A DNA stretch of 32,036 nucleotides from Candidatus Hermodarchaeota archaeon (GTDB lineage: Archaea; Asgardarchaeota; Lokiarchaeia; Sigyniarchaeales; SOKP01): the NCBI GenBank assembly GCA_048885525.1, contig JBHLLP010000039.1, forward strand, positions 1-32,036, written 5' to 3'. Under the pieces are notes generated by a model, which saw nothing but the letters and a program-made list of their open reading frames with translations, had not been told where the DNA came from and ran no database searches. The position numbers were made by a program, and so were the translations under genes. Shown piece after piece: positions 11,123 to 31,742 of the stretch (position 1 is its first letter; every line of letters begins with the position of its first letter).

Positions 11123-11944
11123 ATGGCAGTTTCGAAGAAACTTAATGTAGTTTTTACAATTTTTTATTTATCTGTAATTATATACATATTACTCTTTTTA
11201 TATGTACCAGAATTTCAAAATCTCATTATTAACTCAAGGCAAAATATAACTGTGATCACACAAGGAGCGAATTATTTTTGGGCTCTTTTAATTTCCCTTG
11301 GAATATGTTTTTTAGGTTCAGCATCAATAGGGTTTCCAATCCCCTTTCCTTTCGTTTTATTTTCTCTTTCAAATTCAATACTTCTTAAATTTTCTTCTCT
11401 TGGATTAGATATATTACAAATCCTACAATTAGGTCCTTTTTGGCTTGAAATTATCTGCCTTGCATTATTTGGGGGCCTAGGTAGTGCTTTAGGAGAATTT
11501 ACTGGATATGCTGTTGGTTATGGAACAAAAAAATTGGTAGAAGAAAGGGATTCAGAACTTTTACGTAATGTAAATGGATTTGGAAAGTTAATCATGGATA
11601 ATAAAAAACATACTTCCTTATATATATTCATTTTTGCTCTAACACCCCTCCCAGATGATATTTTATTTTTACCCTTAGGAATGATTAAATATCCTTTTTG
11701 GAAGTGTATTATTCCCGGTTGGTTAGGAAAAAATATTACTACATTGTTTTATTGTTGCTGGCCGATCTTTTTAGCACTCGGATTCGTAGCTCAAGGAATT
11801 CAATCCAATGACATATCAAGTATAATAACAGAAGCGATTTTATTGTTAGTTACAATAACAGTTATGTTTTTTATTATGTCTTTTAATTGGACTAAATATC
11901 TCAATAAAAGAAGTCAAAAAAAAATACATAATCCAAGCTCATAA
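11123..11944 (+). CDS. DedA/VTT (SNARE-associated) family membrane protein
   Basis: GGLGSALGEFTGYAVGYG and FALTPLPDDILFLPLG...GWLGK motifs. Confidence 0.85.
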   Translation: MAVSKKLNVVFTIFYLSVIIYILLFLYVPEFQNLIINSRQNITVITQGANYFWALLISLGICFLGSASIGFPIPFPFVLFSLSNSILLKFSSLGLDILQILQLGPFWLEIICLALFGGLGSALGEFTGYAVGYGTKKLVEERDSELLRNVNGFGKLIMDNKKHTSLYIFIFALTPLPDDILFLPLGMIKYPFWKCIIPGWLGKNITTLFYCCWPIFLALGFVAQGIQSNDISSIITEAILLLVTITVMFFIMSFNWTKYLNKRSQKKIHNPSS

Positions 11945-23340: not shown

Positions 23341-24717
23341 ATGTCATCTTCATCTGTATCAGAAATCCAAACTGAATCCCCTCCCCTTTTCAACTATCTT
23401 ATGCAAGAAATTCCTTTAGAGGATATTAGAGATTATGCTTCACCAAGACGAATACAATCTATAGATTTTTTAAAGGGATTTGCGATTATTTTTGTAATTT
23501 TAGCACATACTGCTCAATACTGGCTTGATCCTATCTCTAGATATGTTTATGGCATTCTCTATGCTTTATTAGATATTCTTGGACCTTCCTTATTCGTATT
23601 CCTTTCAGCACTAAGCGTTATATTTAGTATTAAAAGGAAAGAAGGAATTGTTCACCCAAAAATTATTCGAAATCGCATTTTTACACGAGGAATCGTGATG
23701 ATTGTAATAGGTATGCTTACGAATTTAGTTGCAATAGTAGATGGGAGAGTTATTTTAGTCATATTTGGTTGGAATATCATAACTTTTATTGGTTTTTCTC
23801 AAATCTTTTCTTTTTATATTTTAAAACTTAAGAAAAAATGGCGGATAATAATTGGATTACTAATAATAGTTTTTTCACCAGCTTTAAGAGCTATTCTTTA
23901 TGATGGAAAGGAAGCGGGAAACTATATATTAACTTTTTTCCATTATATAGTAACTTCTCCAACTCCTCATCTTACGCTATTACCGTGGGTTTCAATATGT
24001 TTCATTTCTACAATATTTGGTGAATATATTTTTGAAGCAATGAATAAAGGAACAAGTGATGCCTATGTGGGACTTTTTCGTATCTTTTTAGTCTGGGGTG
24101 TTATTTTTGTAATTATTGGGATTTTTATTCCACTCCCTTCTTTCGGTTTTGAGCTACAAACAGCTGATACAATGATTGGAGGATTATCTGAATATCCACA
24201 TATAGAATTATTAGAAATAGCCCAAAATCAGACTTACTATGAGATACCCGGAATGCCGTTATTCTTAATAAGAGGTACTAGTGCAAATATGTTTTATAAC
24301 CAAGGAGCTGCTTTAATTATTATTGCAACATTCTTCTTTTTGATCGATATTAAGAACAAAGAAAACAATTTCACCAGAATGTTAGTTTATTACGGTAAAG
24401 TCTCCCTAAGTTTATTCCTGATACATTTCTTATTTATGCCGCTTTTTTCTCAACAATTAAATATACCTCTATTTCTGGTGATAAGTCTTTCGTATATAGG
24501 GTTTTTAGGAATTTTTATGTATATTTGGATGGAATATGCTAAAGGTGTTGGATCCCCCGAGTGGTTAATGGTTCAGATGGGTAGGATTGGTCAAAAATCA
24601 GGTGAAGCCGTTAAGAAAACTACGAAAAAGATGTATCAAAAAATTAAAAAGCATGAAAAAGTTAAAAAAATGGAAGATTTCATGAAAAAATTAAGTAAAG
24701 ACGACGATAATCCATAA
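23341..24717 (+). CDS. Transmembrane acyl/acetyltransferase, HGSNAT-catalytic/DUF1624-like (paralogue 1)
   Basis: RRIQSIDFLKGFAIIFVILAH, PSLFVFLS, LLPW, YGKVSLSLFLIH. Confidence 0.8.
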   Translation: MSSSSVSEIQTESPPLFNYLMQEIPLEDIRDYASPRRIQSIDFLKGFAIIFVILAHTAQYWLDPISRYVYGILYALLDILGPSLFVFLSALSVIFSIKRKEGIVHPKIIRNRIFTRGIVMIVIGMLTNLVAIVDGRVILVIFGWNIITFIGFSQIFSFYILKLKKKWRIIIGLLIIVFSPALRAILYDGKEAGNYILTFFHYIVTSPTPHLTLLPWVSICFISTIFGEYIFEAMNKGTSDAYVGLFRIFLVWGVIFVIIGIFIPLPSFGFELQTADTMIGGLSEYPHIELLEIAQNQTYYEIPGMPLFLIRGTSANMFYNQGAALIIIATFFFLIDIKNKENNFTRMLVYYGKVSLSLFLIHFLFMPLFSQQLNIPLFLVISLSYIGFLGIFMYIWMEYAKGVGSPEWLMVQMGRIGQKSGEAVKKTTKKMYQKIKKHEKVKKMEDFMKKLSKDDDNP

Positions 24718-24731
24718 AGACAAGGTTTCCA

Positions 24732-26024
24732 ATGTTTAAAACTCGAATATTCTTTCTAATAGCCTGTGGTTTCAATATTTTCTATTTAATTTTAACATTC
24801 ATTTTTTTTTATTTCTTAAGTAGTCCTTTAATGAATATTGAAGAAAATGACTATTTATCATTTTATTATGCAGGCTTAAATATCATAAGAAATTTACCTA
24901 ATTTATACAACTCTTCGCTATCTCCATTTCCTTTTAGATATTTGCCTCCTTCTGCTTACTTTTTTACACCATTTTCAATTTTAGGGTTAGAATTAGGCTA
25001 TTTTTTTTTTCAGATTTTCAATTTCTTTCTAAACGTCTTATTAATTTATCTAATGTATAGAATCATTCAAATTTACAACAAAATTGGCAATGACTCCCAC
25101 TTTTATTTCAAATTAAATAAATTTAGAGATATTTTCGATGAAACTGACAATGATTCTATTCTTCATCAAAATGCTGTTTTTCTAATAATGTTGCCACAAT
25201 TTATGAATTATTTCTTAGGACAAATTAATCTAATAGTGTTATTTTTCATTCTTTCTTCCTTGTTATATTTTTTGAAAGGAGATATTAAGAATGATATAAT
25301 AGGAGGATTCTTAATAGGACTAGGCTTATTATTAAAACCAAATCTAATTCTCATTTTACCATTTTTATTTGTCTTGAATTATAATAGAAAATCTAAGAAA
25401 ATTGTCTTTAATCTAAAGAAAACTATTGCAAGAGTGCTAGGTCCTTTAATTTTAATATTTATCTCAGGGATTTATTTTTTTATTTACCCTCAAATGTTAT
25501 CAGATTTCATTGCTGTTAATCTTACAGGAGAATATACATATACTACAGAAACGGGTATAGAAATTAATCCTTCATTCAGTTTGACTAGAATTGTTTTAAT
25601 TTTTTTGCAATTGATTAGAGTAGATGTTAATGGATTTCTTGTATTTATAGGTATAACCTTAATTATCTTAATTCCAATATATTTTTTTTATATTCAAACT
25701 CCTTATCATCCGAAAAATTTAATCAATGGATACTTAATAGGAATTTTGGTAATGTTAATTGTATATTTTGATTCTTGGCCTCATCATCTTGTCGTTTTGA
25801 CACCATTTTTAATCTTTTTTATTCTATTCAATAAAAAATTCCAATACTATAAACTATTCAAGTATATTCATTACTTAGTAGCGATATTAATGGTTATTTT
25901 TTGGGGGATCTATTACATTACCCATCAATTTTTCCCTTTTAACGCAGGAGGATTAACATTATTGATGTTATTATACTACTGCTTAATTACATATTATTTA
26001 AATCAAGTTAGAGAGAATTTATAA
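24732..26024 (+). CDS. GT87/DUF2029 (GT-C fold) membrane glycosyltransferase
   Basis: DYLSFYYAG, PFRYLPP, LGQIN, LLKP, SWPHH motifs; polytopic. Confidence 0.85.
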   Translation: MFKTRIFFLIACGFNIFYLILTFIFFYFLSSPLMNIEENDYLSFYYAGLNIIRNLPNLYNSSLSPFPFRYLPPSAYFFTPFSILGLELGYFFFQIFNFFLNVLLIYLMYRIIQIYNKIGNDSHFYFKLNKFRDIFDETDNDSILHQNAVFLIMLPQFMNYFLGQINLIVLFFILSSLLYFLKGDIKNDIIGGFLIGLGLLLKPNLILILPFLFVLNYNRKSKKIVFNLKKTIARVLGPLILIFISGIYFFIYPQMLSDFIAVNLTGEYTYTTETGIEINPSFSLTRIVLIFLQLIRVDVNGFLVFIGITLIILIPIYFFYIQTPYHPKNLINGYLIGILVMLIVYFDSWPHHLVVLTPFLIFFILFNKKFQYYKLFKYIHYLVAILMVIFWGIYYITHQFFPFNAGGLTLLMLLYYCLITYYLNQVRENL

Positions 26025-26192
26025 CAGATTTATAAAAATCTTCTTTAAAAAAAGAGCTTTTTCGCTTAAAACGATCAAAAATTAATGATAACAAAAAAGT
26101 TTTAAATAGTTCAATAATAATAATATTAAAATTTTACTTCGGAAATTATCTTTTTCCATTAAAATTATTCGATAAAATGATTAGGATCAATA

Positions 26193-27470
26193 ATGTCAAT
26201 AGCAATTGAAGAAGAATTCAATAATGAACTTACAAATGATAAATCGAAAAGAATTGCTTCAATAGATTATGTTAAAGGATTTGCAATAGTTTGGATAGTT
26301 TTAGCTCATGCAGGTCTCAGCTGGCTTGATAGTGATTGGAAGTATGTGTATGGGCTTGTTTTTGCATTCCTCGACGTTCTTGGACCTTCATTATTCGTAT
26401 TTCTCTCAGCACTTAGTGTGGTTTTCAGTTACAAAAGAAAAAAAGGAAAAATGTCAGAGAAAGCGATTCGTAACGGGATTTTGATAAGAGGAGCGGTAAT
26501 CATTTTTATAGGTGTGTTATTCAATCCAGTTTCCTTATTAACAGAGCGTAAGATAGTTCCTTTCCCTGCAAATTTATGGGGTTGGAATATTCTTATGTTT
26601 ATTGGATTCTCTCAGATTATCTCTTATTATGCGATAAAATTTAATAAGAAGTGGCGTGCTTTAATTGGAATTGTCGTTATTTATTTTTCTCCTTGGATTC
26701 GAGAACTCCTCTATGAATTTAAAGATGGAAATATTGGGGTTTCTATCCTGCATTTCATTATAACTTCTCCACTTCCTCAAGTTCCAATATTACCATACTT
26801 AGCAGTTTGTTTCATGTCTACAATATTTGGTGAGTTTCTTTACGATGCAATGATAAAAGGGACTAAAGAAGCCTACTATAAGTTATTTCGAATATTTTCC
26901 ATTTATGGGATAATATTTGTATTGTTGGGAATATTTTTAATTGTCCCGAGGGGTGTTGCTTTTGATATTTGGGAATTTGGATTATCACGAGTAAATCCTG
27001 CTCAGCCCCCGAACCTCCATTCTGCTCCTGGTATTATTATAAGATCAGAATATTTACATATTGACTTATTGGAGATAGCTAATCGGCAAAATTATGCTCA
27101 TTTTGATGCAATGCCGATTTATATGGTAAGATGTACTGCCCAAAATATGTTCTACAATCTTGGCATTGCTTTTTTACTTATCGCAATATGTTTTTATGTT
27201 ATTGACATAAAAAAGAAAATGAATGATGTCATAAGATTAGTCTTATTTTATGGAAAGACTAGCCTCTCTCTGTTTCTAATTCAATATCTTTTTCTTCCCT
27301 TATATACAGGCCAATTTTCAATAATATTTCTGCCAATTGTTTGGGTTGGCTATTGTGGATTTCTCGGTTTACTTATGTATATGTGGTTGAAATATTTTAA
27401 TGGTGTGGGTACACCAGAATGGATTATGAGAAAAATTGGAGATGTAGGGAAAAAAAAGAAAAATTCATGA
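26193..27470 (+). CDS. Transmembrane acyl/acetyltransferase, HGSNAT-catalytic/DUF1624-like (paralogue 2)
   Basis: KRIASIDYVKGFAIVWIVLAH, LGPSLFVFLSALSV, STIFGE, YGKTSLSLFLI; colinear with 23341-24717. Confidence 0.8.
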   Translation: MSIAIEEEFNNELTNDKSKRIASIDYVKGFAIVWIVLAHAGLSWLDSDWKYVYGLVFAFLDVLGPSLFVFLSALSVVFSYKRKKGKMSEKAIRNGILIRGAVIIFIGVLFNPVSLLTERKIVPFPANLWGWNILMFIGFSQIISYYAIKFNKKWRALIGIVVIYFSPWIRELLYEFKDGNIGVSILHFIITSPLPQVPILPYLAVCFMSTIFGEFLYDAMIKGTKEAYYKLFRIFSIYGIIFVLLGIFLIVPRGVAFDIWEFGLSRVNPAQPPNLHSAPGIIIRSEYLHIDLLEIANRQNYAHFDAMPIYMVRCTAQNMFYNLGIAFLLIAICFYVIDIKKKMNDVIRLVLFYGKTSLSLFLIQYLFLPLYTGQFSIIFLPIVWVGYCGFLGLLMYMWLKYFNGVGTPEWIMRKIGDVGKKKKNS

Positions 27471-27671
27471 GAGAGATCTCATTTAGAGGAACTTAAAAAT
27501 TATAAAAGCGATATTCTAAAGATATAAATATCTTTAAAAGATAATATGAAATAATAATCGATGAATTAATTATTAATATTAATCATTGTAGCAAATTCAA
27601 ATCTTATAATAATTTATCAAAAAAATATAAATAAATACACTATAAATTGAATATATACGAGGAAATTAATT

Positions 27672-28225
27672 ATGAGCTCAGAATCTCAATTTAAGTTTAA
27701 GATAACTCTCTTTGGTCCTGGTGGAGTTGGTAAAACATCTCTTCTATTAAGGTATATTAAAGATTATTTTAGTGATGACCTTAAAAAAACCATAGGGAGC
27801 AATTTTCTTATTAAGGACGTAGAACTCGATGGTAAAAATGTCCGTCTATTATTATGGGATAGCTTTATCTAAAATTCTTAGATTGCCTCAAAATTGGCGG
27901 ACAACCACAATTCCATAAACTCAGAACTATATATTTTAAGGGGAGTAACGCAGCATTGGGTGTTTTTGATTTATCATCTAGTCAAACCCTCCTAAAAATT
28001 CCCGGTTGGATCAGTTCAATTAAGAAGACAGTCAAAAAAACTATACCCATGATATTATTAGGTAATAAGGCAGATTTAGAAAGAGAAGTAGATAGGTCAG
28101 AAGCAGAGGATTTAGCTAAGAGGTTAAATTGTGACTATCTAGAGACCTCAGCAAAGACAGGACATAATGTAGAATTAGCCTTTGAAAAAATAGCGAAAGC
28201 TTGTATTGAGGATATTGGTGTTTAA
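27672..28225 (+). CDS. Rab/Ras-like small GTPase, 173 aa after splicing; join(27672..27860,27893..28225)
   Basis: G1 GPGGVGKT, G2 TIG, G3 WD|IGGQ (split), G4 NKAD, G5 ETSAK; the two ORF-track fragments join in frame when 32 nt are removed. Confidence 0.9.
27861..27892 (+). other. Putative 32-nt BHB-type mRNA intron
   Basis: Central helix UGGG(27855-58)/CUCA(27887-90), 3-nt bulges AUA(27859-61) and AAA(27891-93); cuts after the second bulge nucleotide restore GAT|ATT. Confidence 0.8.
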
Positions 28226-31130: not shown

Positions 31131-31742
31131 ATGAATCTTAAAAAAGCTTTTTTAGAAATATCTGAGTTATTAGAGATATTATATCAAGACAGAGAAGAAA
31201 TTTTGAAAATTTCACGCGATATTATTAGGGGTTGCAGCGTTGCTATAAAAAATGTTCATAGAAAAGAATTTAATAAATTTCATGAACAAGTAAATATAAT
31301 TAAAACAAATCACCAGAATTTAGTTAGTATTGTTAATAAAAATCCTGGAATTTTCTTTAAATATTTAAAAACTCCAGAGCAAGAAATAACTGAATCAATT
31401 GTTTTCTATTCAATTATTGATAAAAAGGATATTCCATCCCCTAATGAATTAAATATTAATCCTTTAAATTTTCTTTTAGGTTTAGCCGACGTTATTGGGG
31501 AATTACGAAGATACGCATTAGATAATATTAGAAATTCTCGTGTTGAAGATTTAAATTCAATATTGGAAAGTATGGATAAAATATATACCACTTTATTTAC
31601 TATTGACTATCCTGCTGGAATAACTCAAGATTTAAGACATAAAGTAGATGTTGCTCGAAGTATAATAGAAAAAACAAGAGGAGATATATCTCTAGCCATC
31701 CAAATGGATGATTTGAAGAAATGTTTTGAAAATAATAAATAA
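31131..31742 (+). CDS. Translin/TRAX-family (C3PO-like) protein
   Basis: REEILKISRDIIR, QEITES, LLGLADVIGELRR, LRHKVDVAR. Confidence 0.9.
   Translation: MNLKKAFLEISELLEILYQDREEILKISRDIIRGCSVAIKNVHRKEFNKFHEQVNIIKTNHQNLVSIVNKNPGIFFKYLKTPEQEITESIVFYSIIDKKDIPSPNELNINPLNFLLGLADVIGELRRYALDNIRNSRVEDLNSILESMDKIYTTLFTIDYPAGITQDLRHKVDVARSIIEKTRGDISLAIQMDDLKKCFENNK

What the first reader, a model, noticed from the sequence alone, without database searches (positions are those of the whole stretch)
27839..27903. BHB-type (tRNA-like) intron inside the G3 motif of an Asgard Rab-like GTPase mRNA
Seen: the gene reads LLLWD (ending 27860), then 32 extra nt (agctttatctaaaattcttagattgcctcaaa) carrying an in-frame TAA and a frameshift, then IGGQPQFHKLRTIYFKGSNAALGVFDL. 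All five G motifs are otherwise intact. The junctions fold into BHB geometry. The 4-bp central helix is UGGG(27855-58)/CUCA(27887-90), with 3-nt bulges AUA(27859-61) and AAA(27891-93) on opposite strands. The intron stem is GC/GC plus AUCUAA/UUAGAU. An 8-bp exon-exon helix UGUCCGUC(27839-46)/GGCGGACA(27896-903) closes it, but only 1 bp directly flanks the 3' bulge, so that side is relaxed. Established: archaeal splicing endonuclease EndA cuts after the second nucleotide of each bulge and RtcB ligates. Here that gives cuts after 27860 and 27892, exactly regenerating WD-IGGQ and a 173-aa protein. Archaeal mRNA introns of this type are best known from crenarchaeal cbf5, and I know of no description in an Asgard small GTPase. 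Inference: expression of this eukaryotic-signature protein depends on endonuclease splicing, possibly as an on/off switch reminiscent of HAC1/XBP1 non-spliceosomal splicing.
Basis: partly seen in the sequence, partly recalled or inferred. Interest (0 to 1): 0.95.

Follow-up and report, generated by a model that had tools for sequence, protein, structure and literature searches.

The report
tRNA-type mini-intron in Asgard Rab gene
A 32-base hairpin that breaks a Rab-like GTPase gene of a Lokiarchaeia (Asgard) archaeon is very probably an intron cut out of the messenger RNA by the tRNA-splicing enzymes; the papers I could search confirm this inside an archaeal coding sequence for only one gene (cbf5), and no spliced RNA could be checked here.

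Summary
Observation confirmed. The insert (27861-27892) carries a stop and a frameshift, and removing it restores WD-IGGQ and a 173-aa Rab-like GTPase. It is real DNA: an independent study's contig spans it without differences. Four of 47 congeneric genomes with the gene, plus metagenome contigs, carry it at the same site (12 distinct sequences). Central helix and intron stems pair in every copy; one pair occurs as C-G, A-U, G-C and U-A. Both exons stay under purifying selection (dN/dS mostly 0.03-0.12), so it is no pseudogene. The genome encodes RtcB and two EndA paralogues; one keeps the catalytic triad and the Aeropyrum broad-specificity loop lysine. Splicing itself is inferred (about 0.9); no RNA was available. 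The HAC1/XBP1-like switch is not supported: most orthologues lack the intron, and at least six unrelated genes here carry similar inserts. Carriers are scattered over the gene tree, with hints of short co-transferred flanks, suggesting lateral spread. Papers searched confirm only cbf5 (coding) and one Haloferax 5' UTR intron. This scan has noted such Asgard mRNA introns before on other DNA (45 notes, at least 30 genomes), apparently including this site.

The parts
27659..27663 (+). Shine-Dalgarno-like GAGGA, 8 nt before the ATG
   Evidence: seen in sequence
27672..27860 (+). Exon 1 of the Rab-like small GTPase (aa 1-63: G1 P-loop, G2 Thr, ends at W-D of G3)
   Evidence: Pfam Ras 1-54, E 1.8e-14
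27839..27846 (+). 5' strand of the exon-exon helix (pairs with 27896-27903); about 6 bp conserved
   Evidence: 81% of cells paired in 12 alleles
27854..27854 (+). A pairing with U27894, the one pair closing the 3' bulge; a synonymous Leu third position
   Evidence: 12/12 paired; A in 14/14 intron-bearing vs 12/34 intronless copies
27855..27858 (+). Central helix, exon strand (UGGG)
   Evidence: 100% paired in 12 alleles
27859..27861 (+). 5' bulge AU^A; predicted cut after 27860
   Evidence: cut rule from PMC2738675
27861..27892 (+). 32-nt BHB-type intron with in-frame TAA (27870-72); stems 27862-63/27885-86 and 27867-72/27878-83
27887..27890 (+). Central helix, intron strand (CUCA; CCCA, CCUA, CCCG, CUCG in relatives)
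27891..27893 (+). 3' bulge AA^A; predicted cut after 27892
27893..28225 (+). Exon 2 (aa 64-173: IGGQ, G4 NKAD, G5 ETSAK, stop)
   Evidence: Pfam Ras 57-160, E 8e-27
27896..27903 (+). 3' strand of the exon-exon helix

Best explanation
A genuine bulge-helix-bulge mRNA intron. The pre-mRNA folds into a 4-bp helix flanked by two 3-nt bulges (shown by folding and covariation). The cell's two-subunit EndA cuts after 27860 and 27892, and RtcB joins the exons, giving the mRNA for a 173-aa Rab-like GTPase (inferred from the cbf5 and tRNA pathway; not observed). The intron is one of at least seven such mini-introns in this genome, most sitting in conserved motifs. It is most likely a near-neutral passenger removed constitutively, tolerated because EndA has broad specificity. 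Its patchy spread across the genus is best explained by lateral exchange of the intron with short flanks by recombination, plus losses (inferred, about 0.55).
For: Exact restoration at the bulge-rule cut sites. Same site and same 32-nt length in 4 congeneric genomes and 12 metagenome contigs, 12 distinct alleles. Central helix, 2-bp stem and 6-bp stem 100% paired; one pair seen as C-G 8, A-U 2, G-C 1, U-A 1; 0 of 500 shuffles reach the covariation score; slid controls 29-49% paired vs 93%. Carriers differ at 56-84% of synonymous sites but 4-8% of non-synonymous sites, in both exons; dN/dS 0.042 (G000/G005) and 0.029 (G004/G075), vs median 0.043 for intronless pairs. All 14 carriers keep open frames over aa 6-168 and recognisable G1, G3, G4 and G5 motifs. 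Only copy of this orthologue in a 99%-complete genome; synteny with HAD and ThrRS kept. EndA alpha aligns to Aeropyrum EndA (E 8e-36) with equivalents of Y125, H133, K164, R157, W183 and loop K44/R46 (PMC3241643); second paralogue and RtcB present. JAMM and LOR/scramblase genes show the same presence/absence pattern with the helix kept.
Against: No spliced RNA, circular intron or peptide seen. The 3' bulge is closed by a single pair, so the motif is relaxed. In one allele (G004) an alternative fold is 1.6 kcal/mol more stable than the BHB form. One close carrier pair has dN/dS 0.44 on few changes (L162/L169). Kin are not independent, so the shuffle counts overstate significance. The flank-tract windows were chosen after seeing the data, and one intronless pair also shows a local excess (G011/G072, p 0.007).
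Confidence: 0.9

Rival explanations
1. The intron is spliced and serves as a regulated on/off switch for this GTPase, as HAC1/XBP1 splicing does (a sub-case of the best explanation).
For: The unspliced mRNA yields a dead 66-aa fragment. The relaxed motif could be cut inefficiently. The intron sequence is more conserved than synonymous sites (median 16% differences).
Against: Absent from 43 of 47 congeneric genomes with the gene. At least 5-6 changes on the tree. Similar inserts in unrelated genes (JAMM, LOR, receiver domain, AMP phosphorylase, RNase HII, SelD). A different insert at another site of this same gene in G025. No dedicated nuclease needed.
Confidence: 0.1
2. A dead gene: a chance insertion inactivated this copy.
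For: Stop and frameshift in a family with about 70 Ras-like matches in the genome, one of which does look broken (C41).
Against: Low dN/dS with saturated synonymous sites across 14 carriers, no other lesion in aa 6-168, compensatory pairing inside the insert.
Confidence: 0.02
3. Translational recoding: a -1 frameshift into the insert, or a ribosomal hop over it.
For: The exon-2 frame is open through the insert in 11 of 12 alleles.
Against: A frameshift would put about 10 residues between D and G of the DxxG motif. No slippery site is shared by the alleles on inspection. G005 has a stop at the first codon of that frame. The take-off codon GAT has no matching landing codon (27890-92 is AAA). Neither explains the two 3-nt bulges.
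Confidence: 0.03
4. Two separate polypeptides (66 aa, and 110 aa from an AUU start at 27893) that work as a split GTPase.
For: Public gene calls list both pieces. Earlier scan notes suggest AUH starts in this lineage (unchecked).
Against: No Shine-Dalgarno-like site before 27893. The break lies inside G3. It does not explain the fixed 32-nt length or the covarying BHB.
Confidence: 0.02
5. Assembly artefact.
For: DNA runs hold contigs that skip 27861-27892.
Against: At min_likeness 80, the listed contigs that lack the insert carry many other differences, as intronless relatives do. A contig from an independent study spans 27696-27942 with 0 differences and 0 gaps. Eleven other alleles exist in other assemblies.
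Confidence: 0.005

Closest known systems
BHB intron of the cbf5 pre-mRNA in Desulfurococcales and Sulfolobales (Yokobori 2009, PMC2738675, citing Watanabe 2002 and Yoshinari 2006)
   Same: Short intron inside a coding sequence, at a catalytic Asp motif; relaxed BHB; cuts between the second and third bulge nucleotides; two-subunit EndA; lineage-specific absence.
   Different: Asgard host and a Rab-like GTPase; one of at least seven such inserts in one genome instead of a single gene; carriers are a scattered minority instead of an ancestral intron with a few losses; no cDNA confirmation.
HVO_1309 5' UTR intron of Haloferax volcanii (Schwarz 2020, PMC7714728)
   Same: mRNA substrate of the tRNA splicing endonuclease at BHB sites.
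   Different: Untranslated region there; here the reading frame depends on removal.
Non-canonical tRNA introns of Asgard archaea (bioRxiv 10.64898/2026.10.13.758758)
   Same: Same kind of motif in the same phylum, repeated gains, two EndA paralogues, route of arrival unknown, splicing not yet shown in an Asgard cell.
   Different: That preprint covers tRNA genes only: 'mRNA' and 'cbf5' do not occur in its main text.
HAC1/XBP1 splicing by IRE1 (review PMC13149111)
   Same: Spliceosome-independent; removal shifts or restores the frame; uses a tRNA-type ligase (XBP1 and RtcB from my own knowledge).
   Different: IRE1 cuts two stem-loops on an ER-stress signal. Here the substrate is a BHB, the nuclease is housekeeping EndA, and there is no sign of regulation.

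Membership tests
Archaeal BHB (EndA-spliced) intron | 4-bp central helix between exon and intron | tested here: met
   100% paired in 12 alleles
Archaeal BHB (EndA-spliced) intron | Two 3-nt bulges on opposite strands, flanked by outer helices | tested here: met
   5' bulge closed by 2 covarying pairs; 3' bulge closed by 1 invariant pair plus a 6-8 bp exon helix, i.e. a relaxed form as in cbf5 (PMC2738675)
Archaeal BHB (EndA-spliced) intron | Cuts after bulge nucleotide 2 restore the uninterrupted product | tested here: met
   Gives the WD-IGGQ junction, colinear with the 34 intronless orthologues in the tree
Archaeal BHB (EndA-spliced) intron | Host encodes EndA able to cut non-standard substrates, and RtcB | tested here: met
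   Two EndA paralogues, catalytic triad and K44/R46 loop equivalents, RtcB; sequence evidence only
Archaeal BHB (EndA-spliced) intron | Spliced RNA in vivo or cleavage in vitro | not testable with these tools
   No RNA holder listed
IRE1-type regulated splicing (HAC1/XBP1) | Two separate stem-loop cut sites for a signal-activated nuclease | tested here: not met
   The fold is one BHB with the cuts in bulges
IRE1-type regulated splicing (HAC1/XBP1) | Condition-dependent splicing | not testable with these tools
   Needs RNA from several conditions
Group I / group II self-splicing intron | Catalytic RNA core of hundreds of bases | tested here: not met
   32 nt; no Rfam match at E up to 1
Homing-endonuclease-bearing BHB intron | Endonuclease ORF inside the intron | tested here: not met
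   32 nt in all alleles; a length-free search in the genus found only the four short copies
Rab-like small GTPase (Ras superfamily) | G1-G5 motifs, about 170 aa | tested here: met
   an intronless orthologue's best PDB matches are Rab21, Rab1B and a Thorarchaeota Rab
Eukaryotic Rab proper | C-terminal cysteine prenylation motif | tested here: not met
   No terminal CC, CxC or CaaX; hence 'Rab-like'

The most novel reading that the evidence does not exclude
Lokiarchaeia routinely splice many protein-coding mRNAs with EndA and RtcB, and these 30-32-nt introns, which encode nothing, spread sideways between species into conserved motifs by short-tract recombination. That would be a prokaryotic, spliceosome-free population of mobile mRNA introns in a close relative of eukaryotes.
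Probability: 0.5. Interest if true: 0.9.

Novelty: new variant of a known kind. Interest (0 to 1): 0.77.

Why it matters
In the papers I could search, splicing inside an archaeal coding sequence is confirmed only for cbf5. Multiple such introns in an Asgard genome would mean that exon joining of mRNA is routine in the lineage nearest to eukaryotes, by a route that does not need the spliceosome. It would also mean that gene callers split real genes, including eukaryotic-signature proteins (Rab-like GTPase, JAMM protease), into fragments or pseudogenes; public databases hold this gene as 66-aa and 110-aa pieces. The 12 alleles and close intronless sisters make intron gain, loss and spread directly testable, a question that the 2026 Asgard tRNA-intron preprint leaves open.

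Tried and rejected
RNA evidence: no RNA holder listed; this says nothing on expression or splicing. Joints that skip 32 nt are in DNA runs and are best read as intronless relatives, not splicing. The first genome scan timed out. Codon-score filters lost the known intron and returned gene-gene junctions, so they were dropped; the later scans are incomplete (they missed the RNase HII and SelD cases), so seven is a lower bound. The rpiA candidate on C7 was rejected: relatives have the same length there. The split Ras hit on C19 is two tandem domains, not an intron. Five extra hits of a loose pattern across 400 Asgard genomes are not in Rab genes and are chance; the intron at this site was not found outside the genus among those searched. 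G075's second, intronless copy is identical to G072's over the region compared and is probably bin contamination. No donor copy of the intron elsewhere in the genome (best matches 16 nt, E 0.014). The structure string and alignment A2 were misregistered and redone. The bacterial promoter/terminator scan was uninformative. No structure prediction was run, because the spliced protein is 82-94% identical to intact orthologues.

Full report
Observation. The window is a contig of a 3.58-Mb, 29% GC genome, 99% complete. Two genomes of the same genus carry orthologues identical to records titled Promethearchaeota, so the host is a Lokiarchaeia-type Asgard archaeon. The gene starts at ATG 27672, reads to W-D at 27860 and stops at TAA 27870-72; the rest lies in another frame from 27893 to 28225. 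Removing 27861-27892 gives a 173-aa protein with WD-IGGQ, and no other removal of 14-59 nt does. The halves match Pfam Ras 1-54 and 57-160. The MFE and centroid folds show the central helix and intron stem, and opening both bulges costs 0.3 kcal/mol. One in 10,000 shuffles of the insert matches this at the same junction. In an ORF-blind scan of both strands of the genome it ranks 12th of 114 strong BHB-like folds; several above it look like tRNA introns.

It is real DNA. A contig from a different study spans 27696-27942 with no difference and no gap. Contigs that skip the 32 nt occur in DNA runs, and the listed ones that lack the insert differ at many other positions, as intronless relatives do.

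Relatives. Of 54 genomes of the genus, 47 have the gene and 4 have this insert. A pattern search added 12 metagenome contigs. The insert is 32 nt at the same site in all of them, giving 12 distinct alleles, all with the in-frame stop. Synteny with the HAD hydrolase and ThrRS genes is kept in the congeneric genomes. Over the 12 alleles the central helix, the 2-bp stem and the 6-bp stem are 100% paired. One pair occurs as C-G, A-U, G-C and U-A; slid controls pair at 29-49% against 93%. RNAalifold recovers the same core unaided. The synonymous A that closes the 3' bulge is A in 14 of 14 carriers but 12 of 34 intronless copies. Kinship inflates the shuffle statistics, but four pair types at one position are hard to get without selection on RNA structure.

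Selection on the protein. The four genome carriers differ at 56-84% of synonymous and 4-8% of non-synonymous sites, in both exons. dN/dS is 0.042 and 0.029 where it can be computed, against a median of 0.043 for intronless pairs. Metagenome carrier pairs give 0.05-0.12, with one close pair at 0.44 on 16 changes. No carrier has a second lesion in aa 6-168. A full-length protein must therefore be made from the interrupted gene. Frameshifting would leave about 10 residues inside the DxxG motif, hopping lacks a matched landing codon, and a split two-chain enzyme lacks a ribosome-binding site; none explains the bulges.

Machinery. The genome has two EndA paralogues and RtcB and many intron-bearing tRNAs. 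The C2 paralogue is closest to the Aeropyrum pernix catalytic subunit (E 8e-36). It keeps equivalents of Y125, H133, K164, R157, W183 and of loop residues K44/R46. PMC3241643 shows that this loop gives broad specificity and that K44 is needed for activity. PMC2738675 gives the cut rule and reports relaxed motifs for most cbf5 introns. Cleavage and ligation of this mRNA are inferred from these, not shown; no RNA run was listed.

Not a lone switch. My scans, partly guided by earlier notes, found inserts of the same shape in a JAMM protease (C7, 31 nt), a LOR/scramblase-like gene (C7, 30 nt), a receiver domain (C52, 31 nt), AMP phosphorylase (C6, 30 nt), RNase HII (C4, 30 nt) and SelD (C16, 31 nt). 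For JAMM and LOR, congeners either lack the insert precisely or carry a variant with the central helix kept. The other four rest on motif restoration alone. G025 has a different 30-nt insert, with a stop, just before the P-loop of this same Rab-like gene. With most orthologues intronless and the targets unrelated, constitutive removal of tolerated passengers fits better than a HAC1/XBP1-like switch (about 0.1).

History. On a tree of 48 coding sequences the carriers need 6 changes (5 forced by well-supported branches), and a single clade is rejected (p-AU 2.6e-62). Intron alleles differ by only 3-9 of 32 nt from this one, although synonymous sites are near saturation. Carrier L163 differs from its intronless sister G076 at 7 of 25 positions around the junction and 21 of the other 464 (p 2e-4, window chosen afterwards). 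G005 and G065 show a wider excess (17/90 vs 25/399, p 4e-4). This genome's 24-nt 5' flank differs by one base from the distant L165/L168 group, whose distal exons differ at 84-88 of 399 sites. Lateral transfer with short flanks fits this. Convergent selection on the exon helix, with one old gain and many losses, is not excluded, and an intronless pair also shows a local excess. No homing endonuclease form and no donor copy were found.

Comparison with what is known. It works like the cbf5 intron and meets every testable feature of an archaeal BHB intron; the defining experiment is missing. PMC7714728 (2020) names cbf5 as the only earlier mRNA case and adds a Haloferax 5' UTR intron. PMC2738675 notes that other protein-gene introns were predicted but unconfirmed. 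The 2026 Asgard tRNA-intron preprint does not mention mRNA. Seven literature searches found no report of Asgard mRNA introns, but the library lacks most subscription journals. This scan has noted the phenomenon in at least 30 genomes, and apparently this same site in another genome; those notes are unchecked leads, not support.

Verdict. Real feature; EndA/RtcB-spliced mRNA intron with confidence about 0.9; regulatory switch unlikely; new variant of a known kind (many, polymorphic and possibly mobile introns in an Asgard genome, against one fixed gene in Crenarchaeota); interest 0.77.

Noticed in passing
L027:1467-1496 (G025 orthologue): A different 30-nt insert with a stop in the same Rab-like gene, just before the P-loop; central helix GATA/TATC; removal restores K-I-T-L-F-G.
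   Followed up: partly
G000:C7:62562-62592 (+), L064: 31-nt BHB insert in a JAMM/MPN protease right after the HSHPGF motif; present or precisely absent across the genus, 30-32 nt variants with the central helix kept.
   Followed up: yes
G000:C7 about 103980-104009 (-), L066: 30-nt BHB insert in a zinc-ribbon + LOR/scramblase-like gene, also after a W-D codon pair; 10 of 30 loci examined carry it.
   Followed up: yes
G000:C52 about 11536-11566 (-), L189: 31-nt BHB insert with four Watson-Crick central pairs splitting the DDEP-D motif of a receiver-domain protein; strongest fold in the scan.
   Followed up: partly
G000:C6:109044-109073 (+), C4:36149-36178 (+), C16:19010-19040 (+): 30-31-nt BHB inserts in AMP phosphorylase (DKHS-TGG), RNase HII (DEAGR-G) and SelD (one base after the TGA read as Sec); removal opens the frame in each.
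   Followed up: partly
G000:C41:24346-24837 (-): A Rab-like gene with two in-frame TGA codons, one near the start and one mid-gene; probably a pseudogene.
   Followed up: partly
G000:C71 about 11709 (-), L068: 33-nt BHB-like candidate near the start of an MFS transporter gene; not resolved.
   Followed up: partly
L186 (G075:C313): Intronless copy of the locus identical to G072's over the compared region; likely contamination in that bin.
   Followed up: yes
window 31131-31742 (+): Translin-family gene (Pfam PF01997, E 1e-11) divergent from the ThrRS gene.
   Followed up: no
window 23341-27470 (+): Two HGSNAT-like acyltransferases flanking a GT87 glycosyltransferase, upstream of the GTPase; the nearest one is syntenic across the genus.
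   Followed up: no
L161, L162, L169 (metagenome carriers): A carrier subgroup with more amino-acid change; L162 and L169 have Asn in the P-loop (GPGNVGKT).
   Followed up: no
G000:C8:66342-66434 (-): tRNA-Sec gene; ARAGORN also calls many tRNAs with introns in this genome.
   Followed up: no
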